A stretch of 41,893 bases of DNA from Psammoneis japonica (GCA_008632985.1 QPGO01000085.1:310001-351893); one strand, 5' to 3'; positions 4,816 through 41,893 are shown, numbered from the stretch's first letter. The notes: generated by a model not told the origin, from the sequence alone. Program-made: numbers and translations.

Positions 4816-4885
4816 GGGGGTTCTATGGTGCTTGTGTACGTTTGAGCTGGCGCTTTGCTGCAAGGATTGTGATGGCTTTCGTGTC

Positions 4886-11083: not shown

Positions 11084-12129
11084 TGTTAGGTTCTGGTAAT
11101 GTCAATCGATATAATCTCCATCCATTGCGACAGTTCCAAGCCGAAGCACAAAGCAAATGCACTGCTTATCACATGCTGCAAACGAAATCTCATGTGTCAG
11201 CAAAAATGATGTATCATGTTGTTCTGGATTCGTGGCTTAGCCCGTTCAATGGAGATTCAAATCTGAAATCATATAAGAAAATTATGGTTTTATATACGAA
11301 GAAGTCTCCTAATAAATCCTTCCCTGCGAGCGAGCTGTCCCGCGCTGTGCTGCCTGACTTGGAAGCACTGTCACCATGATGTGTTCTCTGCCTGATGCGA
11401 AGAGCATGTCTCCGACTGGTGCCCCATCTGTTCCTTCAAGGTGTCTCCAAAAGCTGTGCAAAGATTTAGACGCCATGCCACCACTGTCAGATCTTCTTTT
11501 GGCTGCCTGGGGCAATGGCTCTGCACAATGAACAAGTTTGCCTGCTGGGAAATGAGCATCATCTCCTGCCCCATTGTTGCACGCCAAGTTGCCAATGCTC
11601 AAGGGGAAATCAGGGTTGGAAGCTGGAAACACATCTCTTCTGTTGGCATTTCTCATGCCCCTTTCTCAAATGTTTCACCTGTCATCTCTCTCAAATCAGC
11701 AGCTGCGCACGTGCCAGAGGGAGAAGAAAGAGGAGTGTGGCTGTGGGGCACTTCCGCCGCACATTGACCGCATTTGGCCCAAGTGGTTGGATCTTTGGGA
11801 TTGTCACAATTGGTCAGCTGAAGTGATTTGGAAGCCAAAATTGGAGCAGCACATGAATGTCAACTGAAGCAATGCCTCTGGGTGACAAATGGCCCGTGCT
11901 TCAGGTTGTGCTGAAGACTTCCACTTTTGAGAAACTGTGCTTGTGAGACTGCTTTTGCACAGTCATTGGCCAGCAAGCTGCAAGCTGGTTTTTAAGGACA
12001 AAACAGAGTGGGCTGCTCAGAGCTCTGCACAAGCAACAATGAAAAAAAAGAACAGCCCCTGGGCTGGCTGGCTGGCAGCAGCGCGCATGGCACTTGGGTT
12101 GTTGTTGTTGCAAAGAGAGCCACATGATG

Positions 12130-12309
12130 TTTTGCTTGTGAGAGACAAAGGTGGTGCATGACTGTAAAGACAAGGAGGTCATTTTTGTTAAAACCTTGCA
12201 TGAGGGATGGTTGCACAACCCCTGCTCCAGGAGAATGTGGTTTTTTTCCCAAAATGACCGTGCCGCTTCTCACATCTTGCTGTGTCTTCCCCATTTGCCC
12301 ACCAAGGGG
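12130..12309. repeat. ~180-bp dispersed repeat, inverted copy at 37562-37746
   Basis: ttttgcttgtgagagacaaagg...ccatttgcccaccaagggg matches the reverse complement of 37562-37746 with about three substitutions, a 6-nt indel and a 1-nt T-run difference. Confidence 0.92.
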
Positions 12310-18144: not shown

Positions 18145-18300
18145 AAAAAACTGTTGAAGCTGATGGCTTCAACAAAAAATCTGTTGAAACTAAAAATGTT
18201 TTGTTGAAACTGACAGTTTCAACAGTTTTTCTGTTGAAACCAACAGTTTCAACAAAACTCGTTTCAACAAAAAGTGTTGAAACTGTTGGAATGTTGAAAT
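18145..18300. repeat. Array of palindromic gttgaaac-N-gtttcaac modules (left arm)
   Basis: Repeated tgttgaaactgacagtttcaaca / ctgttgaaaccaacagtttcaaca, roughly inverted with respect to 19007-19140. Confidence 0.75.
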
Positions 18301-19006
18301 TGATGTCACGGTTTAGAGATTGATGCTCGCAATTGCCGTGCATTGTGCCAACACCCGCCCAACACGCAAATGATGATGGCGGCCCATGGCGGCATCAAAT
18401 TTCCACTTGATGATGACAAAAATGGCGCCGTTAGAACTGCTGCAGTTTGGTCAGCACAAGCGCGAATCTTCTTGTTGTGTTCAGTTGAACAACCACAGAC
18501 TTGCGAGGTGATTTCAGAAACCTTCAAATGAAAAGTTTCTGCACACTTTTCTTGGGCCATTTTGACCCCCTCACTCTAAGAACAAACCTCATGCAAACAA
18601 TCCCATTGGGTCAGACGCATCAAAATCAGCTCTCACATGATCATTGGTGTGACTCTTGCAGACCCAGTTTGGCTGCCTTGGGCATTGAGTTTGTGTGGCG
18701 CAACATGCAACCGACAGCATTAAAATCCTTTGGATGCAGCAGGTCCATTCAAGCAACAAGCACACAACATCACATGCCAGTTCCTTGGCAAAACATGTCA
18801 TTCACACTTCATGTTGTCGATTGGTGCCAATTCTGCAGTGGTCAAGTCTGAAGAGGTTGCCAAAAACAACCGCTCACCACCATGGCAACTTGCACAAAAC
18901 ACACATCTCATCCGATGCGGAGTTCTGCACGCCACTCAGTGCATGGCATCTTGCATCCACTCATTTCACCTTGAGCGAGTCAATTCGTCGGAAATGCTGA
19001 CGCCAT

Positions 19007-19140
19007 GGTTTCAACAAAAACTGTTGAAACTGTTGGTTTCAAAAAAGAAATTGTTGAAACTGTGTGGTTTCAACAAAAATCTGTTGATTTTGTTGAAACT
19101 GTTAGTTTCAACAACTTTTTTGTTGAAAACATCTTCAGTT
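19007..19140. repeat. Array of palindromic gttgaaac-N-gtttcaac modules (right arm)
   Basis: gtttcaacaaaaactgttgaaactgttggtttc...tgttgaaactgttagtttcaaca; same module as 18145-18300. Confidence 0.75.
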
Positions 19141-22100: not shown

Positions 22101-23046
22101 CTTTGATTTCCTGCCTTTTTCAGAGCAAGGACGACTCTCCCAGCGCAACAACAGCCATGCCAACACACGGAAACACCAGTGCAGAAACGAGCCCCTTCAT
22201 GATGAGCTTGCACTGACAGGGCCCTGGGTGACTTGAAAGAGGGCAGCGGGGATGTTGGGCACCATGCAGAGTGCAGAGCAGCAAATTCTGCCAGACACCA
22301 GTGCAAGAGGGCCAGTGCTGAAATGTTGAGGGCATCCACGGGGCTGACGTGCTCAAAGACACCACTCAAGAGACACTGGAATTTTGAGTGGTTTGCAGCA
22401 AAAGCCATGCACAACTGTGATCAGTGCAGAAAGAGAAAAGAGCACAGTCAACAGCAAACTGGTGAGTTGCCACTTGAGTTTTTGTTCGCTGCACGCACAC
22501 AAAATGCCTTGCACCTTTCCAACTTCTGCAGCCAAAATCAGCTGATTCGCGTCCTTCAGATGTGGACAAACGCACGCATCATCCCACCAACATCTTGGAG
22601 GATTTGTTGCAAACAACATGAAAATTGGCAAAGCCAACCAAAAGGCAGTTGCGCACCTTGGCTCCGATGAACAATTGTTCATGTCTGCAATTCGCTGCAC
22701 ATCGATCTGCTGAGGTCGCTTCTTGAGAGATGAATGAGAAGCTGTCGCTTTTCTGCTGTTTTGAGCTTCCTCCCATCCAAGGCCTTCTTGACTTCTCAAG
22801 GCTCAACACCACCCCATCCAGTGCAGCCGATGAAGTCCAAAGGCCAGAGGGTTGCCACAACGCCAGCATTCATCATCGACATGGCTGCGGCATCTTTTGC
22901 CCACGGCGCTCCATGGTTTCATGGCGGCAATCGGCGGACTGAAATCTTTCAGCCTCAGAGGGAGGTCCCCCAATTAAAAAAATTGATGGGCGGGTGATCT
23001 GAAAAATGCATTTGGTGCACCGTCTGGGTGGACGTGTGCTGGAGTG

Positions 23047-23357
23047 CAAATGAAAGCAGAACAAAGCACGAAAAGTGGAAATTGTGAGGTTGCATTTTAA
23101 ATTTCACTCTGTGATTTTTGGTTTCTCCAAAAACAAGTTCTCAATGGCCTGAAGCTTGTGCACTGCCTCCACAGACAAAACGCCTTTTGGAGAACATGAT
23201 TGTGGCAACAGATTGTCCAGATGCGATTGCCACTGACGTGCAACATGTCAACATCATCATTCGATCGTACTTGCAATTCTTGACTTCCGATCAATTCTGT
23301 GTGATTGTTCTGTCCTTTGCGCGCATCCACAATTGTGGCACGATTGATGCACATGTG
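23047..23357. repeat. ~310-bp direct repeat, copy 1 (copy 2 at 29620-29922)
   Basis: Colinear match from caaa.gaaag..gaa..aag..cgaaaagtggaaattgtgag to ttgtggcacgattga; most differences are transitions at TG/CA positions. Confidence 0.92.
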
Positions 23358-23592
23358 TGGCGCGCAACTGCACATGTGCACACAACAGTCGCATGCTGCA
23401 CTTGCCTCCTTGACTGCACACTGGAGTTGTTCATCAAGCGGAGTTGTTCAACGCACACTGACAGTGTCAGCAATGTTTCCATGTTGACTGTGCTGCACTG
23501 CGCCATTGGCGATGACTGTTGTTGTTTTGTGGGCCAGTGCAGGGCCGTTCCAGTTTCCGAGTTTCTTTTGAGAGTGTCGTTGTTTGTCTCTC

Positions 23593-23594
<2 letters not shown>

Positions 23595-23630
<36 letters not shown>
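23595..23630. repeat. (TG)n microsatellite abutting an assembly gap (N at 23631-23757)
   Basis: Directly visible. Confidence 0.95.
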
Positions 23631-24755
23631 NNNNNNNNNNNNNNNNNNNNNNNNNNNNNNNNNNNNNNNNNNNNNNNNNNNNNNNNNNNNNNNNNNNNNN
23701 NNNNNNNNNNNNNNNNNNNNNNNNNNNNNNNNNNNNNNNNNNNNNNNNNNNNNNNNNGTCATTTGTTGAAGTGGGCAGTTTTTCATGCCGCAATGATTGA
23801 AGACCAGTTGTTGTCCTGCTGGCTTCATGGCATCAACTGCAAACAGCATTTTGCCTGACACTTGGCGTGCACTCTCAATCATGGCGCTCACTTGCTTGTG
23901 GATTTCGCACAACTTTCTGGTGAGCTTGCTCTGTGTGCCACATTGCTCTGCCGCACTTCCGCGCATCATGAGCAGCCAACGATGGTCAAGGATGTTTTCT
24001 GACCATTTCGTCTTGACAATCCTGTGGTGGTTGTGGATTCCTTCATGGATTTTTCATTGCTCCAACCATCTTTTCGTTGGATTTGTGCCATTGTTCGGAC
24101 ATTTCTTTTTGACATGCCGGCATTTTTTGTCACTCTGAAGGCCATGCTTTCATGCACCAAGTGGACAAATGTCCATTTTTCTGATGTGTGTGTGTTGTTT
24201 CTGAATCTTCGGCACATCTCGTTTGTCGACATGATGCATTTTCTTTCATGTCTTGCCCCGCACATTGAACATCACAACCACGCAGGTCTTGTGAGATTGT
24301 CTTTTGTGCCAGTGTGAAGTGGGCAGCACAATGTGCGCCAATCTTTCACTTGCTTTTTTCCAACCACCCTTTCTTGAGATGATCTCATCATGATGTGAGC
24401 ATTTTTTGATCTCGCTCGCCTCCACAAAAAGTCTTCGTGTGGTTTGTCATGCCCAACAATTTGGAGGGAATGTCTTCACCCCATTTTAATGGCAAGACAT
24501 TCTCACAGGATTCAGATGCAATCTTGTCAGCTGGAGCTTGTAGACTGGGGTTTTCCATGGGTTCAATTTTTTTCACAGCAAGTTGGCTGATCGCATCTCT
24601 GACAAGGTTTGCCTTGCCCTCAATGTGCATCATTTTGGGGCTGCATTTTTCCATCACAAGTTGCCAATGCGCGACTCTGTCCATTGTGTCTTGTGATCCA
24701 TCATCCATCCATGTGTCAATCTGTTGGCCAAACAGCATGTTCTGGAATTTCTTGA

Positions 24756-25581
24756 GAGCATCTTTGCCAGTGAGTCGCAAGCACAAACACAAACATGGGA
24801 ACACAACCCAAAAGGACAAGCAAACAGACTGCCCCATGTGAGTTTGTGATTCTGCACACAACCATCATTTTCAGTTGATCACAATCACACTCACATTTGG
24901 CTGATGGTTGGGCAGATGTTGAGGCAACAAGCAACTCCACACACGAACATCAATGGCCAACTGATGGTGGGACGGACTTGTCGAATGTTGCTGCATGATG
25001 CCATGGCGGCTTTGAACGCAACACATGACACAAGCCACAGTCTGTTCAAGGACATGTCAATGTCTGTCAATGGAGAACAATTCATGTTGCATGTCTGTGT
25101 GTTGCTGTGTTGTGAGGGGCATTCCACATCGTGAAAACAAGCAAAACGCTGTCACACGATTTACGCCTTGTTCTCTTCTGACCCCACAAACCTCCCACAT
25201 GTCCACTCTCCTCCCATGTCTCAATGCGGCCGCATGCAAGTTCACAAGGTGCAACAAAGTGTCAATTGTTGGGCCTCTGCAAGGTCCTTTCATCAAGAAA
25301 GCATCGATTGTTGTTTTGTCATGGTGACTCGCACTTTCCACAGGATTTCTGCACCCTTTTTGCACCAGAAATTTGCAACTCTCATTTGCAATTTTGGAAG
25401 GTGGATTGCATCCAAGGCCTGATTTGCGATTCACTTTCATGAGTTGCAAATTCAAAAAGGGTTGCAAGCGCAAAAAACATGTTTGCGATCCACCAAAAAT
25501 GACGATTTTTTGTGAATCTCATTCGCATCGGAAGACGTGTGGACATGGGTTTGTGCTCACGACTCGCTGGTGAAGATGCTC
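24756..25581. mobile_element. Non-autonomous TIR element A at an ancestral TTAA site (RR...YY termini, Kolobok-like)
   Basis: ~34-bp TIR gagcatctt(tg/ca)ccag(t/c)gagtcg(ca/tg)agcacaaac. Flanked by TTGA (24752-24755) and TCAA (25582-25585). Interrupts gypsy RNase H between VETL and KKFQ. Confidence 0.75.
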
Positions 25582-25585
25582 TCAA

Positions 25586-26499
25586 GGGTGGTCAGCTGCC
25601 ACTTTTTTCAGCTCAAACTCGGCTGAGTGGCTCATGTTTTGCATGATTTTTCCTGAATTTCACCGTGCTTCACCGTGGTGAAAACAACAAGCCACAAGTC
25701 TGTGATGGAGGTGGTCCGTCCACCAACTCTCATTTGTTTTGTGTTTGTTGTGTGTCAAAGATTGTGTGTGCATGAAAAGTTGGCAGACGGCAAACTGCAT
25801 TTTTGAGAAATGTTGATGATTGTCATCATCGTCGTGCTTCGATCGCGGTGCTGATGGTTCTCGTTTTCGTGTGCGATCGGGTGTTGCCACAAACAGTTCT
25901 TGCACTCAAAAACAAACACCACAAAAAACCTCACTCAAATGCAACGGCAATTTCAGGACAAACCCGGGGATGACCCCCCCCCCCAAGGATGGACCATTGT
26001 TTTGTGGTCGATTTCATTCAGAGCTTGCAAACATTTAAAAATGACCCGGACTTGTCACACTGGCAATGCGCGCATTTGCCAAACAAAAATTCAGCGACAG
26101 GTCGAACTTTGTCTGTTTGCAAGACAACATGGAATGCACATGTGATGGTTGCAACCATGTGTGATGTGCAGCGCAATGACTGCAGATGTGTCTGCAGCTG
26201 GTCAAATGCCAATTGTCGGCATTTCCTGGAAAGTTGTGCCTTGTCTGCTGTTGGCAGTTGGATTTTGGCAAAAAATGGCGCTTCATTGAACATGACAACT
26301 GCACCAAAGCTGACAATTGGCATTTGAGCATTTTCAAGTGCAGTTCACACACAGGTCTGACAGCCCTGATGGGGGCTGGACACACTCACATGTGTTTGGG
26401 GGTGCTCACAGGCATCACAAAATGACACGGGCGAAGCACGGGGAAATTCGAAAATCACAATCCATTGAAAAAAAAACAGCGCAAAACAACAATCCAGCC
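25586..26499. mobile_element. Second insertion B in tandem at the same target site (GG...CC ends, weak TIR)
   Basis: Non-gypsy sequence bounded by TCAA (25582-25585) and TCAA (26500-26503). Ends read GGGTGG / CCAGCC. Gypsy RNase H resumes at 26504. Confidence 0.55.
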
Positions 26500-28463
26500 T
26501 CAAGTGTTTCCACTGTGGACAGAAGTTCTTTTTCCATTGCAGGGCAGCACATCTGCACTTCATTTGGCTTGCAGCTGCAGCTCCCAATTGAGAATTGTTC
26601 GTGTCGGGACATGTCTCAAAGGAAAGTTAAAATTCGGGCATGACAACAATGCAGTTTTTTGATGTGATGCGCTCCACACATTCGGAGACTTTTTGTTCCA
26701 TGCTTGTCCTTTTGCCATTTGACATTTGTTGAGGTGAGTTTGGCCAGTGATGCACAGAAGATTGTTTTGATTGGAGTCAAGCAATGGCATGATGATGTGA
26801 GTTGAGGACCATTGGTCCCATCATCAACTCCATTCATGGAGTCACATGTTTCAATGTGATCGGCTTTCAGCTGGAAAACATTGGCATCGAAGAGTGCATC
26901 AACATTCTTCACAGGTGGAGTTGCTTCTTCCCACTTGATTTCCTCATTTGCAGAGTCCAACATGACTCCAAGACTGGACATTGGGTCATGTCCCATGATC
27001 ATGTTGTGACAACTTGAAGAAGAAGGGGTGTTGTCAGCACACGCCATTGTTTGCATTGTCTCATGCTCATCAAATTCAGGCAAAGAGAGCTGCGCTGAAC
27101 AGCAACCATCAGTTGTGAAGAGTCCATCCTTGGTTTCCCAAGTTTTGGTGGCGGACTCCTTCACTCTCAACTTCTGCATGAATTTGCGCAAAATTGTGGT
27201 TGATGATGTTCTTTGTCAAGAAGAATGGCGTGGAAGCTCATTTTTCACTTTTCTCCAAGAAGCAGTCACACAAACAGTGATGAAAGGACCAGCACAACAC
27301 ACTTCGATGCTTTTTCTGGGTTGCCAGACATCCTGCAATGCGCTGCACTCCTCAAGTGGTGCGAATCTTTGATTGGAGTCAATCGGGTCAATTTTTCCAA
27401 ATTGACAGTTTTGTTCAGCAAGCACATTCCTTTGCCAAGGAACTCACTTCAATTGTTTTTGTGAACTGCCCAGTTCATTGTGGAGCTCAGCTCCTCTTTC
27501 ACAGAGTCATTTCTGCTGTCGTCACATGACCGCATGCAACTGCTGTTAGAGCGTGGTGTGTTGGGGTCTCTTTCAGAGCCACCCTTGCACTCTTTTGCCA
27601 GCTTCTTTTTTCAAAAGCTTTGGTCCATGATGTGGGTGTTCTTTTTGCAAAGATTGGACCTCTCACTCACTTTGGGTTGCTTGGGTGCCATTTGGCGACC
27701 ATTTTTGGAACCAGATTTAGAGCCATTTTTGTTTTTTGAACCAACTTTGCTGTCAGAGCCTGATTTGATGGTTTTTTTGGTCATGGACATCATCAACGAC
27801 CTCTGGATGACTCAAAACTCAATCAGCTCATCAGAAAGGCATGTCCCAGTGGCTCAACATCTTGGATGGTTGACTGATGCCACCATCGCTGCGGCGCGAG
27901 TCACAGCTGACAGCTCGGGGCTCGGTTTCCCACTGGACTCAACTCAGAGTTGATTGAAGGGTCGCACAGACACTCTTCATTGACCTCTTGGGTCCATCAG
28001 ACATTTTCTTGCTGTTCAGCTGCCTTGGTTTCTTCAGATCATCTTGAAAATGACAACTCTGATTCTGAAGTGCATTTCCTTGGGAGACATGAGTTGAGAG
28101 ACGCTTGGGGCACTTTTCAATGGTTCCTTCTTGTTCTTCAGACTCGAGGCTTGTTGATTTGGTCTCAAAAACTCTAAAAAAAAACCAGATCCATGTTTTA
28201 AGTGCTGTCACTCCTTTGCCAGCTGGGCTGGTGCCAGTTGACCCACACCCCCAGCACACAGTCAAGTGCAGCAGGAGCTTGCACAGGATCAGCCGGAACA
28301 GAAGGAATGGTTCACATGAGGAATTTGTTGCATGCTTGATGATGACAGCCACAGAAGGCACACCACAACTGCAACGGACAATTGCACTCAGATGGGTTTT
28401 TAAAACAGTCCACAAAAGGAGCCTTGAAGGCAAGATGAGCAGGTCATCGGAGAAAATGTTCTT

Positions 28464-28943
28464 GACACGCAGAAACAATGCTTGGTCTTGCGCAGAAAGG
28501 CCAACGAGAGCAGCAAACTGAAGACCATCAAATGGCACCACAGGATGACTTGTCTTCTTGCTGAAAAGGACCGCAAAAGAAGCAGCACATTCACCACAAA
28601 GAGTGAAGCACTTGACTGCACAGCAGAGAAAAGAAGAGAGGTTGAAGACCGACTGGCAAGGATGAAAGCAGTCTGGAGAAGTGACATGCAGACAGTCAGA
28701 GATGACACGCAGAAACAATGCCAGATCTTGCGTGGAAAGACCAATGGGGAGCAGCAAATCGACAACAACCAAATGACTCCAAAGGATGACCAATGTTCTT
28801 GCTGAAGGGCTGCAACAGAAGCAGCGCTTGCACCATGAAGAGTGCAGGACTTGATTGCATGGCAAGGAAAAGAAGCAGCTTTGAGAGCCGATTCGCAATG
28901 ATGAAAGCAGGCCGGGGAAGCGACATGCAGATCGTCAGCAGCG
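28464..28943. repeat. Two diverged 240-bp (80-codon) tandem units in a decayed coding-like segment
   Basis: gacacgcagaaacaatgc at 28464 and 28704. Minus-strand translation repeats GLS.QD.ALFLRV and LHV.SP.CFH.C.S. Confidence 0.7.
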
Positions 28944-29619
28944 TCTGCGGATCCGCTTGGAATTTGCACTGGAGCCTGTGCAGAAAGTTTTCTGAGACAG
29001 CAGAAAATTGTGGTCAACAATGACCAGCATGCAAACCAAAAACTTGTCATTTTCCACTGATGAACTTTGCTCATCATGCTGCAATGAGGATGTGCCATTG
29101 GCAAACGTGGACAGAATGGGCTTGTTGGAGCCAAACCAACACCGTCTGAGAACGGCAACACATCGGTGTGAAAACACATGCAGAAACACACACAGGAGGT
29201 TGCCAGTGGGTGCTCACACAGAAGCGTGGTCTCAAAAACTCTCCAATGGTCTCTTCTTGCATGGCAGATGCATTTCTTGGACCTGATCGACTCGAGACTT
29301 GACATTCTGTCCAGCCATGACTTGGCACAGATTTTTGACAATGCTGCACACTCACAGAGTCCTTGATCCTGAATTGCTTGGAATGGGTCACATCAGAATG
29401 AATCCTCTTGTTTTGCAGACAAAAAAAGGGTTCCATCTTGAGGCACTGCTCAGATTGAGCTTCTTCCGCTCGGAAATCGATTCCAGCAGAACTGGTGGTG
29501 CGATTCGTTCCTGCTCACAGAACAATTTGCAAAGAGGCACATCAGTTGAAACTTTCATTTTCCGTGTTTTTACCTTCTGTGGTGTGCACACACAATGCAC
29601 TGTGCTCAAAGAATGAGCA

Positions 29620-33049: not shown

Positions 33050-33944
33050 TGGATCTAGAGTCGAGCACATGCACGTTACGAACTAGAGTGAATAGCCCAA
33101 CTTTTCACTGCTAGCCAGCTCAAGTGGTCGAAAAGGATTTTTTGTCCTTATTCTAAAACCATTCTTCATCATCCTTTTCTCATGTCATGCTCATGTCGAC
33201 ATCGCTACTAGCAAATGACAAGTTATCATCTGACGATGGAACGAACATCATTTGAGTGCAGCGTTTAGCCACTGATTGGCGGCGCAATCCAGATCATACT
33301 GTACGGTGTCATCGAACTGAGTAAATCACGCCATAGTCGCTAAGAAATTGACAAGATACGATAGACCAGGCCTGCGGGGAGCATTGACCACTTGTCTTTC
33401 TTTGTGGGTATGGGTGTGTGCCGTTGCATGCTGTATTGCCTGTACGTACGTAGGGCCCTACCGCCGGGGCCGGTATATATTGTGCGTGGCGGCTGATCTG
33501 AGTGGCGTGGCCACCGCACCGGTGACGCGGATGACCGATATATTTGATGTCTCATGCCATTTTTGGGGCTGTAGCGAGGTGCACGGACACTCTTTTTTTT
33601 CCAATTTATCGCCATAATAGCGCATCGCACAAACTCACTTATTGTTCGATATGTTTTCCCCAATATGACTTTTTCGTGTAGAATTCACGATAAATTATCT
33701 TTGTATATAACTGAATACATTTTTGAACATGCCACGCCGGCAATCCCAATTTTTCAGAACTTTCGAGCTCTCCTGAAAAACCGTGCCACGTACCCGTCGT
33801 AGGGAATTTATCGATTTTTTAGGATGTCCCCACAACCTCTCATGTCCTCAATGATAATTCCAAGAATCCGAAGAATTCATCTGCACTAAACAACCCACAC
33901 CCTTTCAAAATCCAAGGGACACACTTTCAAATTCAGACGGACAA

Positions 33945-34010
33945 CCCGACTGCCCGACCCCCCGACTGCCCGACCCCCCGACTGCCCGACTGCCCGACTG
34001 CCGGACCGAC
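33945..34010. repeat. CpG-rich minisatellite of CCCGACTG/CCCGACC units at the edge of domain II
   Basis: cccgactgcccgaccccccgactgcccgaccccccgactgcccgactgcccgactgccggaccgac. Confidence 0.85.
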
Positions 34011-34389
34011 ACGAAAAAGTCTGCAATCACCAACCACTGAGTGGTCAATGAAAAGTGTTGTCACGGCAATCAACAGGATTCCACTGAGTGGAAATTGTGA
34101 GGGTCACTCCATGCCACCCACCATTTGAGTGACAGTGGTGGTCTTCGCCAAACGGTCCCAACGCTCGTTTCGGTGACAGCATGGCTGGAATTGCTCAGCC
34201 CCCTCGAGCTGACACTGCCACTGCCAATGCTCCAGCTAGAGCAGCCAGTCCAGTCGGGTCAGTTCGACATGGCCTGTGCCTTCCGCATTGCTGCCCTGTT
34301 CCAGGTGAAAATCTAACTTCACATTTCATTCAGGATGGGCAAAACCCCTCCATTTTGGAGGAGAAAATCCTGGCGCCTGTCCATTTTGG

Positions 34390-37300
34390 ATCAGCGCCTG
34401 TTCACCACAGTGCACGGCGAATCAATTGCCAGAGCTTCAGTCCAGGCATCAGCTTTGTCAGCATGTCTGCTGAGAGTTCATGTGTCCATCCTCCCAAGCA
34501 ATCTGCGCAATTCCTGCAGCTTGCACCTCACACATCCGGTGACAAGTGATGGCATTGTGTCTCTTCTCAAGCGTCAACTCTGGCCGTGCTGAGTTCTTGA
34601 ACACAGCCTCATTGTCGCAGAAGACATTGGTTGGCCTCCTTCTTCCCAAATTCCTGGCATTTGAAGCTTGTGACACAAGGCTTCGATCTGCTCTGCCGCA
34701 GTCTTCATCACAACAAATTCTGACCCAAAGGTCAAGAACTCTGCAGCATTCTGCCATTCAGAGTGCCACAAGATTGTTGGTGCCTGTTGCACAAAGATTG
34801 TGGCCCCAGTGCAAGACCTCTGTGTCACACAACAACCAGTGTGATCCATGTCAATGAAACATGTGGCAGCGGCGCTGTTGCCCTGTGTCTTGGGGACATC
34901 CCTCATGACAGCTTTGGCTGCCCTGGGATGGCACTGTGTCCAGCAATGCTTCTGGAAGCATGGTTGGCCAAAAGCAGGCTTGGTGTCATTGAACACCATC
35001 ACAGACTTTGCGCGTGCCTTCAGATGTGCAAAAACATGAAGCTCCTCATCCAAGTGCCCAACTCTTGGTGCTGCCAAGTGCAAGAACATCAAGGACACTG
35101 GGGCTGTGAGATGTTGATCCACCCCAGCTCCAGCTCCAGCACCATCCAACGCAATGCACCAATGAGCCCCTGACAGTGACTTGCCGTGCGGGCATCCAGT
35201 TCAGGGGAACTCTCTGGTTCTGGCCTGTGCCCAGCTGAGCTTGAACTTGACATCAGCAGCTGTCCTCTTGACATGCAAGTCAGCGAACAATGCCCAGCAT
35301 GTGTTGCCATCCAAATCGGATGGTTGGTGCTTGTGGATCTGGGTGCCAAGAAGCTCCTTGGGTTCCTTGACACTGCCATCCTCAAGCATGTGACAAGACA
35401 CCATAAAATCCATGAATGTCTGAGGATCTTGAGAGATGACTGGCAATTTGTCAACACACACAAGTGCACATTCCCAGTGCTTGAAGCCATCAGGCTTGAC
35501 TGCCTTGCACACCCAAACATCAGGGATGCCTTTGAAAGATTGAAAGTTGAAAGATTGAAAGCCCGCTTCATGCAGCATGGCCACCATGTGGTCCTGAAAT
35601 CTGGCGCCTGAGATTTTGAGACCACATGGTTCCTGTGCAATCTTGACAGGTCACCCCTCATTTTGCTTCCCAAATTCCCCAGGCCAGCAGTTGCACAACA
35701 GCATTCCTTGGGTCTTTGCACCCAGATGGGCATTCTGAATGTCAGCGCACACTGTGTCTGGGTCATTCAATGCAGCTGTGGTAAAAGCCATCCTGACACT
35801 GCCGCGCAAGACTGCACTGGAGAGCAGGTTGACTCTTTGGGTGGCTCCATCTGATGACCTTCTGCAACATGTTGGGCTTTCTGGGTCAAATCAGTCTTAA
35901 CATCAAATGCCATGAGATCAAAATTGAAGGTGTTTGTTGCGCTAAACTGCACAGAAAATCAGCCTCTCACGCAATGGATTTCTCCTCACCTGGGGCTGAA
36001 CAGGCCAAGTTTGCCCCCCCCCCCCATCCCTGTCCTTCTTGTTGCCTGACTTGAGAGCAGCACTGCATCCATGAGCTCCAAGCAGTTTTGCATTGCCTCG
36101 GTGTTTAAGTCATCCTCAGCAAGGGCCACTCATCCTTGCAAATGATGGGTCTTCCCAACTCAGGTGGGATTGTGAATGCCATGTTGTCTGTGCAGTTTTC
36201 TGTGGCACTTGACCAGTGTCCAATGCACAGTCAAAGAGGGCATGTGCTGAGACGCCAGGCATCAAACCCGTTGTGTCCTCTTCTGGGACCCCGCCATCCA
36301 TTTCTGGATGTTTGGAGGCAGTCAGCCTCCTCACTGCTGTGACCCACTGGGCACAGTGGGACCAACAACGCTTCGGCACATGTGTTGCCTCATCGCCACT
36401 CTAACTTTCCATTTGAGTTCTCAAGCAGAGGCTTTGGCTAAATTCTGTCATGGACTGCAGGGCACAGTTGCACCCTGCTTGACCCCACATTCTTTGCAAA
36501 TCTCCTTGGTCTGGCCATCAGTTGGCTCGGGTGTGATGTTGGACACAATCTCAAGGGGAACACCAGCATCATGGATGAATGACATCATTGCCTCCGGATG
36601 CTTTCCCTCTGAGTCCCAAGGGTGGAAGTGGTCACAGCCTCTCCTGCCATTGATGATTGAGCCGCCAATGTCCCCATGAATTGATTTGACCTTTGAAAAC
36701 ATTTGGTCCATGTAAAACCTGTCCTTTGCACTGGCGAATTTGAGCCAAGGGGCCTTCTTCCACACCTTCCTCTTGGATGGCACACAGATGTTCCTGACTC
36801 CGGCTTGAGTCATTGCCCCAAGCACATTCTTTGTGGCAGTGAGACCAACGCCCCAATGCCTGGAAGACATCTTGGGTGTGAGAGTGGATTTGCTTTCAGA
36901 GGCAGACAGTGCAAGTGTCCGTGCACACTCCTCGTGATCTTTGTGCACATCTGCTTGGCACTCATCATGCAGACCATCCCCTTTCATGTTGAGATGGGAA
37001 ATGGTCACATTGGCTGCCGTGTGCTTGCACAATGTAGAGTCCTCACCAACAGTTGAGATCTCCTCAGGGTGGTTGAACCCATCATTGATTGGCCAAATGG
37101 CAGAAATGCAACGTGCTTCATTTGAACCCCTGTGGTCCTCTTGTGGGCTGTGCCCCAATGATTGAGACAAGCTGATGGCCATGTTGAGCTTCGACTCAAT
37201 TGCACCCTCATTCTTGGCAAACTCACCAGACAATGGCTCGTGGTTCCCTGGGCATTGTGGATGTAAGTTCAAGACGTGGCAGTTCCTCCAAGTCTTTGTT

Positions 37301-39717
37301 GTCGGCAGGTTTGCATGTCTCATGGGTGGAGACAATTCAGCTCAGTCAGAGCAGAGTCCAGACCTTCAAGTCCAGGAATGAGATTGAGTGTGAGCTTGTC
37401 TCATTGGGCTGCTTCAGCACATTGCCTGCAGTTGAGCCATTGGCTCTCAGTTGATTGGGGCACATCAGCAAGTTTTTCACTTGGTCCCTGAAACACATGG
37501 CCTCACGCAGTGTTGGCAAACAAGGTTGGCCTGTTGAGGGATCTGTCCAGGTGGTGGCAACCCCCTTGGTGGGCAAATGGGGAAGACACAGCAAGATGTG
37601 AGAAGCTGCACGGTCATTTTGGGAAAAAATCACATTCTCCTGGAGCAGCTGACTGGGTTGTGCAACCATCCCTCATGCAAGGTTTTAACAAAAATGACCT
37701 CCTTGTCTTTACAGTCATGCAACACCTTTGTCTCTCACAAGCAAAAGTGATTTTTTCGATGTTTTGTGTCATTTTACGGCACACTTGTTGAGCGATCCGT
37801 CCAACAACTTTTGACATTTAACGTCGAGTGGTAAGAGGCATAATTGTACCACAAACTTGGCCGTTTATTTGATGTTGAAGATAAATGTGTCCATTGATTA
37901 AATTCTCGTACTGCGGAGCTCGCACGTAGAATTCTACGGGCCCAATGTCACACGGAGTCCCACCTGGGGCTGGAACGCGTCAACCAACTGCATGGGGATG
38001 TTGTGAACCAGTTCACACTCGCCGGAGTGCAGGTGCACTGACATGGTGTGAGTGGGGTTAAAAAATGATGGGATGCAACTTGACCCAGCAACACAAGTGT
38101 CAGCATGTGAGTCAAGCTGGTTGAGGAAAATTCCGTCAGAAGACTCAGCGTTGGCTGAGAATGTGGTGCGCTGAGCTGCACATGCAAAGCAAATGGACAC
38201 AAAATTGGCAGGAGCAGTGCCAACAGCAACACCACATGGGTTGGTCAAACAAGGGCTGTTGTCATCAATGGGTGACATGTGACTCTGCAAGAGTCCTCTT
38301 GCTTGCAGGTGCAGCCAATCATTCTCGATTGGGTTTCTCCTTTGAGGGTTCACACTTGATTGCATCCTGAGCCAAAGGCTTGGGCTTGTGAACCACCCTT
38401 CTGAACTGCATGCCAGCATCTGCTCCACCAGCAGCCTCAGCCCCTGCTTCCTCAGGCACAGGCTTGGCATCAGGCTCATTGGATTCAATGGGTTTGGGAG
38501 GGTCACTCAAGACCTTGCTGACCTTCCTGGTGGCAGCATCCTCTTCGGCATCAACAGCCATGGCTTTGCACTTGCGCTCAGGCCTTCTCCCTCTTCTTCT
38601 TCTTGCAGCGTTCCTTGACTTTGGCATGTTCCTCTGGCTCCAGAGCCAGCCATTTGTCCTTCGGATGGTGTCCGGCCCTGATCCTGGGCTTGTCCTGCTT
38701 CTGCTTGCATGGGTTCCCCCCTTCTTCTTGGGATCACGTTCGTTCCAAACCAAGCCAACAGTGTGCTGCTGCTCTGAGCAATTCTTGGCATTCTCAACCG
38801 GAGTCTTCATGTGCTGCTGGCAGAGCTTGAAGCCAGAGAGCTTGGCATCGTCACCACATGACACTCTCACCACAGCTTCCAGTTGGGGGTCAGTGACCCC
38901 CTTCAAGAAGTCAGAGACCTTCTTGGTTTTAGCCACTGGCTCTCCTGGGTCAAGGAGGTCATCATGAGCCTGGGCCCTCTGGCAGCACTGGATGCACTGG
39001 TTGAATGTGCAGTGACTGCGTCCAGCGCACTTTGCTGTCTGAGCATGTGTGCAATTCTTCCAAGTGGCAGTGGCAGCCCAGCTTTCAGCCTGCCTCTTCA
39101 GTGCCAAAAAGCACTGCACACCCATTCCAGGTGTGATTGTGGGGTTTGACAAAGGCCCACCATCTGGGTCCTTCAATGATTGGCTCCTTTTGAGCCCATT
39201 GCACACATGCTTGTCATCCGTCATGTGCGCCTGTTTGGCATGCCACATCATTGCAATCAAGTCCTCACTGAGTTGTGCGGTGGTGCCAGAGCTCCATCTG
39301 GAACAGCTCCTCCTGCTTGACAAAGTCGTGCATCTGGGTGAGAGGAGCACCCTTGGGGGTGTCATTTTCCAACTCCTGCTTGTGGATGTTGTCCAATTCA
39401 GCAAGGTGGTTGGCCCACATTGCAATGACATTGCCAGCGAAATCCTGGGCTTGCGGCACTTCACCCCTGACAGTGTGGCAGTCCAACCAAGCGCAGAGAG
39501 CCTTGAACTTCCTGACAGCAAGACACAGGAAGTTGACAGCATTGTCATCTGAAGTGTCCTTCTGGAGTCCCTCAATCATGTTGTTGACCTCAGCAAATGG
39601 CACTTGGCAGAAATCATCAACAATGGCAGCAAAACCTTGAGCATTGATGCAGCTGCAGGCACCTGCCACGAAGCCTGTCCTGTTCATGCAGGTGGTGAAA
39701 GCAATGGCATCAGCCAT
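34390..39717 (-). mobile_element. Degenerate Ty1/copia LTR retrotransposon (diatom CoDi-like): gag-protease-integrase-RT-RNase H
   Basis: Gag from 39717 (..GEPVA.TKKVSDFLKG.TDP.L); protease LDSHADTCVAG; CPNQLRANG; integrase WG.GL....TQAGVR..D.MFSKVKS.HG...FIHD.GVP...TVP.SPWQN; RT AHLWVQ, KSQAP/GARF.DH, PDVW, HWECALVCVDK (YWEYVLVYVDD); RNase H FIDMDHTG...RSCTG, TFGSEFV.MK, TNVFCDNEAV, KRHNAI. Integrase lies before RT, the copia order. LTRs not identified. Confidence 0.9.
37562..37985. mobile_element. ~420-bp insertion within the copia protease region
   Basis: Copia reading ..HNIPM(Q) / VATTWTDP is interrupted. Imperfect inverted ends ccccttggtggg / cccacctgggg. The left 185 bp match 12130-12309. 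Confidence 0.7.
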
Positions 39718-40199
39718 GGTTGTGAATGATGTGTCCTCTCATGAAGGTGCAGTGGTGTCACAAGTGTGGTGTTTTGTAAAAAAGTGAGAGGAAATGAGTG
39801 ATTTTGTGGTCATGAACAGCTCAATGCAAGAGTGCCGACCAACAGAAATGCATGACGGCAAACAACAACCGCATGACAAAGATCCTCATGTTTGCATGCC
39901 CCACGTGCATCTCAGTGCATGTGTGCTGATGCACACAACAAGTCATTTCCAATGACTGAATTTCCATTGTGCTGCTTGGGTCCAACAAGCGATCACATTG
40001 TGGCAAACATTGCGATTGCGCAAGCAACCATGGACACATGGCGCTCACCGCAAAATTGATGAAAATGGCACCTGAACCATTGCCCGTTCCAGGCTCCAGA
40101 ACAAAGAGAGACATCATTGGCTCTGATTGAGCAAATCACATGCAGTTGCTGAGAAATTGACAAGACATGATAGAAAAGTTTTGCTGTGGCAATCAAGAA

Positions 40200-40950
40200 C
40201 AGGATTCTAGAAATTGTGAGGGTTGCCCTGTGCCACCCACTGTTTGAGCAACAGTGGTGGTCTTTGCCAAATGACCCCAATGCTTGTTTCAGTGACAGCA
40301 TGGCTGGAGTTGCTCAGAATGCTTTGCAAAATCTGATTTGCCCAAGACAAGGGCAGACAAAGGAATCGATTTCAAGTTGGCATCAGGCAGCTCCTCGTGC
40401 GGCAGCCTGTGGCTTGCAGTGGACTTTGCGGAGTCGAACCTTGGCAGGTGATCAACAAATCTGAGCACTCCAGCAGTCCAACAGACCTGCAATGTCTTCA
40501 TGTTCAGTTGTCCATTCAGCTCTTCCCCATTGTGCAGTTTCTGGAGTGTGGGGTTTTGGTCCGACAAATTGTGAGAATGCAGGTTTTCACTGCTTGCTGT
40601 CAACAAGTGTCAGCAAAACCCCCTTTTGCCGGCTGGACCAAAAATGATCCAGTGGTGGTCCCAAATCTTGTCACAAATCAAAATCTTGATCATCTTCATG
40701 CCGGGCCAGCATGCATGAAAATGCATGAGTGGTGGTGCAAAAACCTTTCCTCTGGATTTGACAAATCTGCTCCTGTTGGGTCAAGGGGGTGCCCAGAGCG
40801 CTTGTCCACCAACACTTCATCAAGTGCGTTGATCACCACATGGACTTCAGGAACATCATGGGACAACAGTGACAAGTTCTCAATGATGTGAGTGTGAAGC
40901 TGTTCAACTTCATTCACGTTGGACTTGAGTTGAGTGACAATCAGCTGCTG
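40200..40950 (-). mobile_element. Possible second, more decayed non-LTR (CRE-like) N-terminal fragment
   Basis: Weak motif resemblance only (ALDEV..D...G..LD, R.FVTR, CILT, WTAG..RFVD, HEELP). Confidence 0.25.
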
Positions 40951-41242
40951 AGTCAGGTTTCCCTGATTTGAAGCATCGCTCAGCCTGCGGCAGTCTAAAA
41001 CCAGAGCAGGGGCACAAACACAAGGACAAGATGTTGGTGTTTCTCCTCATTGTTGGGGAGCCATTGTGTGTGCTGTCTGCAACAAGATGCTGGATTTCAT
41101 CTTCCTGCAGAGCAACGTTGACGTTCTCCAATGATGGCATTCCCGGTGTGTCCTGGAACAAAGCCAGCTCATGATTGGCTTGGTTGAGCTGCTGCTGGCC
41201 AGCAAGGATCTCAAGCAACTCAAGAAGACAAAGCTGGAAAAT

Positions 41243-41377
41243 TGGGTGTCACCACTTGCAGCAAGAATTGGATCAGGCTGGAGGTGGCAGGGACAGACAA
41301 AAGTGCAAAACATGCGCGGAAATTGCCACACAGAGACAGACCGCCGCTGAGATTCTTGCTGCAAGTGGCGACACCCA
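41243..41377. mobile_element. ~135-bp MITE with a 26-bp TIR
   Basis: tgggtgtcaccacttgcagcaagaat (41243-41268) vs attcttgctgcaagtggcgacaccca (41352-41377); one mismatch (CA vs CG). Confidence 0.8.
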
Positions 41378-41524
41378 AAATCCAAGTTGGCAGTGGTTTG
41401 GTGGGTGTTTGGAGCAAGTTGTTGCCGGCACTTTTGTTTGCCAGCCAATGTGCAAAGTTGTCTGGCAGTGGTCGACAATGTGGGAGTCCTTTTTTCTCCA
41501 CACACCAGACACTGGATTGGCTCA

Positions 41525-41893
41525 TGTCTGGGTGCCTTGACCAATCATTTGCCAGAATTTGACCTGACTGAAGACCAGTTTCACAAAATCAAGGTTCTTG
41601 ACAGCCAGGGCTTCAACTCCTGCATCAAGCATGTCAACAGAGACAACAATGCAAGAGAAATTGAAGTCAGTCAGCATCTTGTCAACCCACTCTGTTTGGC
41701 TGTCAATCACCTTGGTGAGTCCACAACACTGCAAGATGGGGCAGAGTTGACTGAAGCTCTGGCAGATTTTCAATGTGTGGTCATGACTGACAGCAAGATG
41801 ATCATCTTGCCAGGCAGTGTCCCAGCTGTGTCCTCAATGGAAATGCCATCCATGAACTCACGCATGACAATGGCATCATTTGTGCCTGTGTTG
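41525..41893 (-). pseudogene. hsdR: Decayed fragment of a bacterial-type type I restriction enzyme R subunit (HsdR, EcoAI/EcoEI-like SF2 helicase C-domain)
   Basis: Minus strand with one frameshift: NTGTNDAIV.REFMDG...DTAGTLPGK.II/.AVSHDH.LKI.QSF.QLCP......KVIDSQ......LTDF....VSVDMLDAGV....VKNL.F.K.VFSQVKFWQMIGQGT. This matches recalled HsdR motifs IV (GKTIIFA...HA), V (ISVDMLDTGIDVP..NLVF.K.V.S) and VI (KFWQMIGRGTR). Confidence 0.8.

What the first reader, a model, noticed from the sequence alone, without database searches (positions are those of the whole stretch)
34390..39717. Near-complete copia polyprotein with systematic Tyr->His/Cys replacement
Seen: YVDD reads CVDK (35458-35447) within HWECALVCVDK; also WHS (WYS), LCHKLQ (LRYKLR), ITCHR (IAYHR), GCDHFHPW (GYDHFYPW), VPCSPW (VPYSPW). 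Inference: TAY codons went to TGY or CAY, meaning A->G on either strand. Ile->Met/Thr and Val->Ala changes fit ATA/GTA codons, and Arg->Cys/His/Gln fits CpG decay. This is the best single substrate in the window for measuring saturation.
Basis: partly seen in the sequence, partly recalled or inferred. Interest (0 to 1): 0.7.

Follow-up and report, generated by a model that had tools for sequence, protein, structure and literature searches.

The report
TpA-erased copia retrotransposon relic
This is a dead copia-type jumping gene in which nearly every TA step in the DNA has been rewritten to TG or CA, erasing its tyrosines; the pattern resembles a targeted DNA-mutating defence recently described in one marine alga.

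Summary
Of 26 columns where 120 intact relatives agree on Tyr, the window keeps 1; 13 are His, 10 Cys and 2 Leu. Phe is kept in 21 of 25 columns and Trp in 14 of 17.

The cause is not general A-to-G change. It is a dinucleotide-specific, strand-symmetric conversion of TpA to TpG/CpA, alongside CpG decay. In the element TpA odds are 0.05, CpG 0.22-0.24 and CA/TG 1.79. The medians in 74 intact relatives are 0.69, 0.93 and 1.14.

The signature fills two sharply bounded blocks, about 11.5-29.6 kb and 33.9-41.9 kb. The first block also holds a non-LTR RT relic with 0 of 9 Tyr kept. Genes and unique intergenic DNA in the window are spared.

The two LTRs read CA versus TG at six homologous sites, so conversion followed integration.

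The closest known case is the TpA-only hypermutation of integrated foreign DNA in Bigelowiella natans (bioRxiv 10.64898/2026.01.13.699255). This window is probably from another, unidentified intron-poor eukaryote. It adds CpG co-decay, near-saturation and a flanking-base preference.

The enzyme is unknown. Raw reads could not be checked.

The parts
40170..40322 (-). 5' LTR (well-aligned core; may extend to about 40125)
   Evidence: Direct repeat with 34045-34203, start-to-start spacing about 6.1 kb. A weak PBS-like ATCAGAGCC lies downstream.
38790..39717 (-). gag, split over two frames; the ATG is at 39717-39715
   Evidence: tblastn of the ORFs 39265-39738 and 38319-39575 hits the DNA just upstream of pol in related metagenome loci, e.g. 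L009 at 2e-21 and L007 at 2e-18.
37981..38122 (-). Aspartic protease region; the motif LDSHADTCVAG is kept
   Evidence: Residues 129-175 of ORF 37934-38506 match the start of pol in 9 related loci and the family consensus ELDSHADTCVAG.
37562..37980 (.). Roughly 400-bp segment absent from relatives, with much milder depletion (TpA odds 0.42, CpG 0.74). 185 bp of it is 94.6% identical to 12130-12309.
   Evidence: In relatives the PR motif and the VATVW motif lie about 35 aa apart; here they are about 175 codons apart.
36120..37585 (-). Integrase region
   Evidence: tblastn with P0001/P0002. rve was found in 8 of 25 family members scanned. Motifs GCDHFHPW and VPCSP*.
35914..36119 (-). Junction of an internal deletion of about 740 bp. 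Homologue residues about 511-826 have no counterpart here.
   Evidence: Gap between tblastn segments.
35201..35913 (-). Reverse transcriptase; YVDD now reads CVDK at 35458-35447
   Evidence: tblastn with P0002, E 2e-111. RVT_2 in 25 of 25 relatives. Motif coordinates. Pfam on the window's own translation found nothing.
34405..35200 (-). RNase H and the C-terminus of pol
   Evidence: tblastn. Motifs WHS, LCHKLQ and ITCHR.
34045..34203 (-). 3' LTR (core), preceded by a purine run GAGGGGG that looks like a PPT
   Evidence: The LTR pair is 78% identical over 183 aligned bases, with 6 CA-versus-TG sites.
33890..41893 (.). TpA/CpG-depleted block 2. It contains the element and runs on to the end of the window.
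   Evidence: TpA odds 0.06, CpG 0.28, CA/TG 1.76. The last ordinary TA is at 33887.
11470..29570 (.). TpA/CpG-depleted block 1 (18 kb; N run at 23631-23757)
   Evidence: TpA odds 0.06, CpG 0.40, CA/TG 1.75. Boundaries.
12927..17196 (-). Relic of a non-LTR-type reverse transcriptase inside block 1 (matches at 12927-14027 and 16308-17196)
   Evidence: phmmer found 2445 homologues at E<=0.001. Four of 5 top hits scanned match RVT_1 at E<=1.2e-5, 2 of them above the curated cut-off. Tyr kept in 0 of 9 consensus columns.

Best explanation
The locus is a dead Ty1/copia LTR retrotransposon, about 6.3 kb on the minus strand, with the order LTR-gag-PR-IN-RT-RH-LTR. Its loss of tyrosine is how a DNA-level process shows up in the protein.

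After the element integrated, TpA dinucleotides were converted to TpG or CpA, by an A:T to G:C transition at either position of this self-complementary step. About 93-95% of them are gone. In the same DNA, CpG decayed to TpG/CpA, with about 75% gone.

The process is confined to repeat or transposon-derived DNA and stops within roughly 100-400 bp of the junctions with gene-bearing DNA. It therefore behaves like a targeted, RIP-like genome defence. It is not ordinary neutral decay.

Shown here: the footprint, its dinucleotide specificity, its strand symmetry, its restriction to certain blocks, and its timing after integration.

Inferred: the biochemistry. My leading guess is enzymatic deamination of adenine to hypoxanthine, which is read as G, in a 5'-TA context on silenced and probably cytosine-methylated DNA. 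This is what was proposed for Bigelowiella natans. It best fits a spectrum made almost only of transitions. A second route gives the same footprint: modification of thymine at TpA (5hmU/5fU from a TET/JBP-type enzyme) followed by mispairing with G. I take CpG loss to be 5mC deamination in the same silenced chromatin.
For: 1. Tyr loss: 1 of 26 consensus Tyr kept, 13 His and 10 Cys.

2. Dinucleotide odds: in the element TpA is 0.05, CpG 0.22-0.24 and CA/TG 1.79. In 74 intact relatives of at least 2 kb the ranges are TpA 0.48-0.88 (median 0.69), CpG median 0.93, CA/TG median 1.14. The lost TA and CG reappear as CA/TG: my arithmetic predicts 1.81 and 1.79 is observed.

3. Specificity: AA, GA and AT odds are 0.94-1.11. 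At conserved columns, 146 single-step changes include 115 transitions, of which 56 are CpG-type and 33 TpA-type.

4. Symmetry: 650 TG and 670 CA on the coding strand.

5. Targeting:
- Unique intergenic DNA in the window has TpA 0.65 and CpG 0.97; host ORFs have 0.50 and 0.99.
- The depleted blocks have 0.06 and 0.28-0.40.
- Boundaries lie at about 11.3-11.5 kb, 29.6-30.0 kb and 33.9 kb.

6. Independent replicate: the non-LTR RT relic keeps 0 of 9 Tyr (4 Cys, 4 His, 1 Phe) and 2 of 11 Arg.

7. Timing: the two LTRs were identical at integration. Now they read CA versus TG at 6 homologous dinucleotides, CG versus TG/CA at 6, and TA versus TG at 1. That accounts for 19 of 40 mismatched positions.

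8. Precedent: mutation-accumulation lines of B. natans show de novo mutations that are almost all on TpA, going to TpG/CpA, in integrated viral DNA. That genome also has clusters of TpA-depleted, CpA+TpG-enriched 1-kb windows, and its low-TpA coding sequences are enriched for RT and DDE domains (Results and Discussion read). Twenty-five of the 41 1-kb windows here pass that paper's thresholds.
Against:
- No other copies of this family from the same genome were available. Ancestral states therefore come from protein consensus and one LTR pair. They do not come from DNA alignments of paralogues.
- 26 of the 115 inferred transitions are in other contexts, including 13 A>G that are not preceded by T. 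Context assignment is imperfect, or a weaker non-TpA component exists.
- The 419-bp segment at 37562-37980 inside the element keeps 13 TA. The process is therefore not acting continuously on everything in the block, or that segment is young.
- CpG co-depletion is not reported in the B. natans preprint ('CpG' occurs 0 times in its main text). The two cases may not be the same system.
- The enzyme is entirely inferred.
Confidence: 0.75

Rival explanations
1. Editing before integration. The retrotransposon RNA or cDNA was hyper-edited by an ADAR-like (A to I) or similar enzyme, and the edited copy then integrated.
For: Per the preprint's Discussion, ADAR usually favours a U upstream of the edited A and mostly targets repeat-derived dsRNA. 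The affected sequences identified here are retroelements.
Against: - The LTRs disagree (CA versus TG) at 6 homologous sites. That needs independent events after the LTRs were made.
- Outcomes are strand-symmetric: 13 His to 10 Cys, 650 TG to 670 CA.
- Depletion runs on past the element into flanking repeat DNA and stops at gene boundaries.
- About 95% of TpA is lost while AA, GA and CA adenines are untouched. That would be unusual for ADAR.
Confidence: 0.05
2. Ordinary neutral decay under a genome-wide context-dependent mutation bias, with hypermutable TpA and CpG everywhere. Genes look normal only because selection preserves them.
For: Both blocks are dead, unselected DNA. Host ORFs already have lowish TpA odds (0.50).
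Against: - 6.1 kb of unique intergenic DNA in the window has TpA odds 0.65 and CpG 0.97, higher than coding DNA.
- Boundaries are sharp, within roughly 100-400 bp.
- Intact relatives of the element have TpA odds 0.48-0.88.
Confidence: 0.07
3. Sequencing or assembly artefact. Heavily modified bases in silenced repeats (for example modified T or A at TpA, 5mC at CpG) were systematically miscalled as TG/CA.
For: Modified bases are known to cause systematic consensus errors on some platforms (recalled, not from any call). In dinoflagellates 5hmU is enriched in repeats and prefers TA and TC (PMC11572971, passages seen). Reads could not be checked.
Against: - The element carries independent signs of real decay: 6 in-frame TGA stops (only 2 at consensus Arg, the others at Gly, Trp, Glu and Ala columns), at least 7 frame switches, a deletion of about 740 bp, and 31 transversions among 146 changes.
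- LTRs are discordant in both directions.
- A segment with near-normal TA sits inside the block.
- The assembly has a 127-N gap. That fits a scaffolded short-read or Sanger assembly better than an unpolished long-read one (inference).
Confidence: 0.05
4. The same targeted DNA-level process, but driven by thymine modification at TpA (TET/JBP-type hydroxylation to 5hmU/5fU, mispairing with G) instead of adenine deamination.
For: In dinoflagellates 5hmU is made by TET/JBP homologues, is enriched in transposable elements, overlaps 5mC in repeats, and preferentially replaces T in TA and TC (PMC11572971, abstract and passages). That would explain why TpA loss and CpG loss share the same blocks here.
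Against: - TC is not depleted here (odds 1.0).
- 5hmU pairs well with A, so an almost pure transition spectrum is less expected than for inosine (recalled chemistry, not from a call).
- Nothing here suggests a dinoflagellate: genes lie on both strands, are intron-poor and compact, and there is no spliced-leader relic.
Confidence: 0.2

Closest known systems
TpA-specific hypermutation of integrated NCLDV/virophage DNA in Bigelowiella natans (Mettrop et al., bioRxiv 10.64898/2026.01.13.699255; abstract, Results and Discussion read)
   Same: Only TpA is hit. It goes to TpG or CpA depending on strand. The process is restricted to foreign or mobile DNA. [quoted passage not shown] Twenty-five of 41 1-kb windows here pass that paper's cut-offs.
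   Different: - Here the evidence is a fossil footprint. No mutation rate was measured.
- Depletion is near saturation (odds 0.02-0.14 in most 1-kb windows, against 0.45 for their NCLDV region).
- The identified targets are an LTR and a non-LTR retroelement.
- CpG is co-depleted in the same blocks, which that text does not mention (0 occurrences).
- The host is probably a different, intron-poor eukaryote: the best homologue of a host protein is 43% identical.
Repeat-induced point mutation (RIP) of ascomycete fungi
   Same: DNA-level, repeat-restricted, dinucleotide-biased transition hypermutation that kills transposons and leaves sharp compositional blocks.
   Different: RIP is C:G to T:A, mostly at CpA, and so creates TpA (abstract of PMC2621366 in the listing). 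Here the direction is the opposite and TpA is destroyed. Dependence on duplication and on a sexual stage could not be tested.
CpG decay of cytosine-methylated transposons
   Same: CpG odds are 0.2-0.65 in the blocks against about 1.0 outside. Arg goes to Gln/Cys/His/Trp/stop, Thr to Met, Ala to Thr/Val.
   Different: It explains only the CpG half. No known methylation-deamination route removes TpA.
Ty1/copia elements of diatoms (CoDi groups, Maumus et al. 2009, PMC2806351; term search only)
   Same: Copia gene order, and RVT_2 reverse transcriptase in all relatives.
   Different: Placement in a CoDi group was not tested because I held no reference sequences. That paper's text has no mention of hypermutation, RIP, dinucleotide or deamination.
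5hmU marking of transposons in dinoflagellates (Li et al. 2024, PMC11572971; abstract and passages)
   Same: A transposon-restricted modification of a base in the TA step that coexists with 5mC on repeats. It is a possible chemical route to the same footprint.
   Different: No mutational consequence is reported in the passages seen. TC is not depleted here. The window does not look dinoflagellate.

Membership tests
Ty1/copia LTR retrotransposon | Gene order PR - IN - RT - RNase H, with integrase upstream of RT | tested here: met
   tblastn places the homologues' IN part at 37585-36120 and the RT-RH part at 35913-34405 on the same strand. The PR motif is at 38122-37981.
Ty1/copia LTR retrotransposon | Copia-type reverse transcriptase (Pfam RVT_2, PF07727) | tested here: inconclusive
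   The window's own translation gives 0 Pfam hits even at E<=10. It matches proteins that carry RVT_2 at E 2e-111, and 25 of 25 relatives scanned carry RVT_2. Kinship is clear; the direct model match is lost to mutation.
Ty1/copia LTR retrotransposon | Flanking long terminal repeats with PBS and PPT | tested here: inconclusive
   A direct repeat of about 155-195 bp flanks gag-pol, 78% identical. There is a PPT-like GAGGGGG and only a weak PBS-like ATCAGAGCC. Target-site duplication is unclear (CATTC versus CATTG, read by eye).
Ty1/copia LTR retrotransposon | Integrase core (rve) | tested here: inconclusive
   rve was found in 8 of 25 relatives (best E 1.1e-5). It was not found in the window's own translation.
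CoDi lineages of diatom copia elements | Phylogenetic placement with named CoDi reference elements | not testable with these tools
   No named CoDi sequences were available. All relatives are unnamed metagenome or assembly proteins.
B. natans-type TpA hypermutation of foreign DNA | Changes fall on TpA and give TpG or CpA | tested here: met
   TpA odds are 0.05 with CA/TG 1.79 and the lost dinucleotides accounted for. Tyr goes to His/Cys. Leu(CTA) goes to Pro and Val(GTA) to Ala.
B. natans-type TpA hypermutation of foreign DNA | Restricted to foreign or mobile DNA, with the rest of the genome normal | tested here: met
   Met within this window only: blocks 0.06 against intergenic 0.65 and coding 0.50. 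The whole genome is not held.
B. natans-type TpA hypermutation of foreign DNA | Measured de novo mutation rate about 1000-fold above background | not testable with these tools
   This needs mutation-accumulation or population data.
Fungal RIP | C:G to T:A at CpA, raising TpA and lowering CpA/TpG | tested here: not met
   The opposite is seen: TpA 0.05-0.08 and CA/TG 1.76-1.79.
ADAR/APOBEC-type editing before integration | Single-strand bias and identical edits in both LTRs | tested here: not met
   13 His to 10 Cys, p = 0.68. 650 TG to 670 CA. Six CA-versus-TG discordant LTR sites.

The most novel reading that the evidence does not exclude
A second eukaryote lineage, not a chlorarachniophyte (probably a diatom-like or other stramenopile alga), runs a RIP-like genome defence in the reverse chemical direction. 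It converts every TpA in transposon DNA to TpG/CpA until saturation. It shares targeting with cytosine methylation, since CpG decays in exactly the same blocks. It has a flanking-base preference, with A-TA-T converted best and T-TA-A worst. If so, TpA-directed DNA editing would be a widespread eukaryotic defence that has gone unnoticed. One reason it could be missed is that its products cannot be recognised by standard domain models: 0 Pfam hits in 92 ORFs of the depleted DNA outside the copia coding region, and 0 in 10 pieces of the copia element itself.
Probability: 0.45. Interest if true: 0.85.

Novelty: new member of a known kind. Interest (0 to 1): 0.7.

Why it matters
Targeted A:T to G:C hypermutation at TpA has, in the literature I could search, one description: a 2026 preprint on one alga. 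A second, saturated example in retrotransposons of what looks like a different host would matter in three ways.

1. It would show the process is not a quirk of one species or of viral insertions.
2. It gives comparative leverage to find the enzyme, by asking which deaminase or TET/JBP genes are shared by genomes that carry the footprint.
3. It links the process to CpG decay, and so probably to methylated, silenced chromatin.

It also gives a testable extended motif.

There is a practical point as well. Such relics lose Tyr, Arg, TAA and TAG, so Pfam-based transposon annotation misses them and all six frames fill with long spurious ORFs. Genome annotators should screen for low TpA with high CA/TG.

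Tried and rejected
Searches and tools that gave nothing useful:
- Pfam on 10 pieces of the element's own translation: 0 hits at E<=0.01 and only noise at E<=10.
- Pfam on 92 ORFs of the depleted blocks: 0 hits, apart from one sub-threshold TBCC match.
- Rfam on the window: 0.
- Whole genome not held. No earlier notes on this genome or on look-alike sequence. A word search returned only unrelated phage findings.
- A dinoflagellate spliced-leader motif, recalled from memory: 0 matches with up to 3 mismatches.
No read-level check was made and I did not try another route.
- The first metagenome scan (A3) matched 606 stretches, but none was confirmed. The confirming sequence was the integrase piece while the patterns lay in RT. 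The allowed second scan with A4 gave 595 confirmed of 606. Its patterns contain Tyr, so it could not find TpA-depleted relatives.
- The viral-contig scan with the window's RH piece found nothing.
- The PDB profile search with A4 found 0.

Host identification failed:
- The best homologue of the SET-domain ORF is 43% identical.
- Cluster look-ups gave no informative names beyond distant chrysophyte and ciliate entries.
- Atlas hits mixed Bacillariophyta and Chlorophyta in one search and were bacterial Sel1 clusters in the other.

Ideas rejected:
- GC-biased gene conversion. It is not TpA-specific and would oppose CpG loss.
- The idea that the TA-rich segment at 37.7-37.9 kb is a second copy of the element. 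Only an 18-nt match was found and it does not extend.
- The 185-bp repeat pair (37562-37746 and 12130-12309) has too few differences to inform the spectrum.

Literature searches for the same phenomenon in diatoms or elsewhere found only the B. natans preprint.

Full report
**Observation**

One is slightly off: 'VPCSPW' really reads VPCSP* (TGG to TGA).

To test the pattern properly I needed intact relatives.
- The 297-aa integrase-region ORF found two long proteins carrying Pfam RVT_2.
- One of these, P0002, then retrieved a family of 1884 proteins at E<=1e-20, of which 120 were fetched.
- tblastn of all 120 against the window shows one copy, at 34399-35982 and 36114-37672, plus a weak protease match.

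I projected the homologues' residues onto each window codon, using columns covered by at least 40 homologues.

| Residue (majority >=50%) | Columns | Kept |
|---|---|---|
| Tyr | 26 | 1 (13 His, 10 Cys, 2 Leu) |
| Phe | 25 | 21 |
| Trp | 17 | 14 |
| Lys | 30 | 22 |
| Arg | 56 | 16 |
| All except Tyr and Arg | 572 | 360 |

- At >=90% majority, 0 of 13 Tyr columns are kept.
- Tyr against the remaining residues gives Fisher p = 7e-10.
- His against Cys gives p = 0.68, so there is no strand bias.
- Arg goes mostly to Gln, Cys, His, Trp and stop.

**Anatomy**

The element lies on the minus strand. In reading order:
- A 5' LTR core at about 40322-40170.
- Gag from the ATG at 39717 down to about 38790, in two frames. 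It is homologous to the DNA upstream of pol in related loci.
- A protease motif LDSHADTCVAG at about 38122-37981.
- A segment of about 400 bp that relatives lack (37980-37562).
- Integrase at 37585-36120.
- A junction where about 740 bp, corresponding to homologue residues about 511-826, is missing (36119-35914).
- Reverse transcriptase at 35913-35201, with YVDD now reading CVDK.
- RNase H at 35200-34405.
- A PPT-like GAGGGGG.
- A 3' LTR core at 34203-34045.

Pol has 6 in-frame stops, all TGA, and at least 7 frame switches. 'Near-complete' is therefore true for the domain inventory only.

Pfam does not recognise any piece of the window's own translation. All 25 relatives scanned carry RVT_2, and 8 carry rve.

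**What the signature really is**

The Tyr loss is one symptom of a change at the dinucleotide level.

| Sequence | TpA odds | CpG odds | CA/TG odds |
|---|---|---|---|
| Element (with or without the inserted segment) | 0.05 | 0.22-0.24 | 1.79 |
| 74 related metagenome loci >=2 kb | 0.48-0.88 (median 0.69) | median 0.93 | median 1.14 |

- Moving the lost TA and CG into CA/TG predicts 1.81, which matches the observed 1.79 (my arithmetic).
- AA, GA and AT are unaffected, at 0.94-1.11. Residues with A outside TpA are mostly kept. This is TpA-specific and is not general A-to-G change.
- At columns with >=70% majority, 146 single-step changes comprise 115 transitions. Of these, 56 are CpG-type, 33 are TpA-type and 26 are in other contexts. 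The remaining 31 changes are transversions.
- All 6 Leu-to-Pro changes trace to CTA, and 6 of 8 Val-to-Ala changes trace to GTA.
- The coding strand has 650 TG and 670 CA.
- In the three minus-strand reading frames of the element, stop codons are 140 TGA, 10 TAA and 4 TAG. In 1-10500 the counts are 174, 103 and 91.

**Not just this element**

The window is split into compositional blocks.

| Region | TpA odds | CpG odds |
|---|---|---|
| 11470-29570 | 0.06 | 0.40 |
| 33890-41893 | 0.06 | 0.28 |
| Host ORFs | 0.50 | 0.99 |
| 6.1 kb of unique intergenic DNA | 0.65 | 0.97 |

- Boundaries are sharp. TA is frequent up to 11313 and from about 29.6-30.0 kb up to 33887, and almost absent in between and beyond.
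- Normal intergenic DNA argues against a genome-wide untargeted bias.
- Block 1 contains a second, unrelated retroelement. The ORF at 16332-16928 has 2445 homologues. Four of 5 top hits scanned match RVT_1, 2 of them above the curated cut-off.
- In that relic 0 of 9 consensus Tyr are kept (4 Cys, 4 His, 1 Phe) and 2 of 11 Arg. This is an independent replicate.

**Timing**

The two LTRs are identical when an element integrates. Here 183 aligned bases are 78% identical. The 40 mismatched positions break down as follows:
- 12 are six dinucleotide sites that read CA in one LTR and TG in the other.
- 6 are CG versus TG/CA.
- 1 is TA versus TG.
- 10 are other transitions.
- 11 are transversions, several of them in the poorly aligned ends.

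A CA-versus-TG pair requires an ancestral TA (or CG) that changed independently, at different positions, in each LTR after integration. This, the strand symmetry and the spill-over into neighbouring repeats argue against RNA or cDNA editing before integration.

TpA loss is more complete than CpG loss: about 7% of TpA survives against about 24% of CpG, relative to the relatives' medians (my arithmetic).

**Extended context (exploratory, n = 88)**

The surviving TAs in the blocks are not a random sample.

| Context | Share of survivors in blocks | Share in normal DNA |
|---|---|---|
| TTAA | 26% | 3% |
| CTAA/TTAG | 31% | 9% |
| GTAA/TTAC | 20% | 11% |
| ATAT | 0 | 9% |
| ATAC/GTAT | 0 | 15% |

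- Precursor CA/TG tetranucleotides are about evenly abundant (518-824), so precursor supply does not explain the skew.
- The ranking of all ten contexts fits an additive model in which conversion is fastest with A 5' of the T (equivalently T 3' of the A), then G, then C, and slowest with T.
- This is a prediction that can be tested elsewhere.

**Comparison with what is known**

The literature searches turned up one description of this chemistry: Mettrop et al. 2026 (bioRxiv 10.64898/2026.01.13.699255; abstract, Results and Discussion read).
- In B. natans mutation-accumulation lines, 230 of the 231 mutations in an integrated NCLDV and a virophage are A>G or T>C, and all of these fall on TpA.
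- The rate is about 6e-7 per site per generation.
- Low-TpA coding sequences are enriched for RT and DDE domains.
- The authors propose an ADAT2-like DNA adenine deaminase.

By their thresholds, 25 of the 41 1-kb windows here qualify.

Differences:
- Depletion here is near saturation.
- The identified targets are LTR and non-LTR retroelements.
- CpG decays in the same blocks. Their main text never mentions CpG.

Other comparisons:
- Fungal RIP is the functional analogue, but it runs the other way and creates TpA.
- In dinoflagellates 5hmU is made by TET/JBP enzymes, marks transposons, overlaps 5mC and prefers TA and TC (PMC11572971, passages). That offers an alternative chemistry. TC is not depleted here.
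- The diatom CoDi paper does not mention any such mutation pattern (PMC2806351, term search only).

**Host**

The host is unknown.
- Host genes are compact, lie on both strands and are intron-poor. They include a 729-aa Sel1-repeat ORF, ankyrin, SET/LSMT-like and AAA_16 genes.
- The best database homologue of the SET protein is 43% identical and no identical protein is on record.
- I therefore think it is probably not B. natans. This is an inference, not proof.

**Limits**

- Ancestral states rest on protein consensus and one LTR pair.
- An artefact caused by modified bases is unlikely, given the independent decay of the element, but it is not excluded.
- The enzyme is inferred.
- The segment 37562-37980 inside the element keeps 13 TA (odds 0.42). 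Either it is a later arrival or the process acts in bursts.

**Verdict**

This is a real, strong and well-bounded footprint. I file it as a new member of a very recently described kind.

Noticed in passing
window 37562-37980: A segment of about 400 bp sits between the protease and integrase parts and has no counterpart in relatives. It keeps 13 TA (odds 0.42) and has CpG odds 0.74 inside an otherwise TA-free block. 185 bp of it (37562-37746) is 94.6% identical, inverted, to 12130-12309. It may be a younger insertion or a repeat that escaped conversion.
   Followed up: partly
window 11470-29570 and 33890-41893: The 88 surviving TAs are strongly skewed towards TTAA, CTAA and GTAA, with none in ATAT or ATAC. 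This fits a flanking-base preference of the converting process, A-TA-T best and T-TA-A worst.
   Followed up: partly
window 12927-14027 and 16308-17196 (minus strand): A relic of a non-LTR-type reverse transcriptase whose relatives carry RVT_1. It shows the same Tyr loss (0 of 9 kept) and Arg loss (2 of 11 kept).
   Followed up: yes
both depleted blocks: Because TAA and TAG are nearly gone, only TGA interrupts reading frames. The blocks hold 92 stop-to-stop ORFs of at least 90 aa in all six frames, and none has a Pfam match. Gene finders and transposon annotators would be misled.
   Followed up: yes
window 4045-4944 (minus strand) versus 2537-3346: Two paralogous host ORFs, about 67% identical in DNA and 123 of 254 aligned residues identical. 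The copy at 4045-4944 has only 8 TA (odds 0.15) but normal CpG (1.08). It shows 10 sites with TA in the other copy and TG/CA here, against 4 the other way. This could be mild TpA conversion of a duplicated gene, or chance.
   Followed up: partly
window 33930-34010: A CG-rich tandem repeat of the CCCGACTG type lies directly outside the 3' LTR. It is not CpG-depleted, which marks the edge of the affected block.
   Followed up: no
window 14369-15080: Tandem copies with a period of about 180 bp, 75-87% identical, inside depleted block 1.
   Followed up: no
window 23631-23757: A run of 127 N (an assembly gap) inside depleted block 1.
   Followed up: no
window 37532-37549 and 37786-37803: An 18-nt direct repeat, 16 of 18 identical. 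The copy in the TA-rich segment keeps two CpG that the other lacks. The similarity does not extend further.
   Followed up: yes
window 8003-11101 (minus strand): A large host gene with an AAA_16 ATPase domain at its N-terminus, followed by about 760 codons with no Pfam match. It is read as four abutting or overlapping ORFs, which suggests short introns or frame errors.
   Followed up: no
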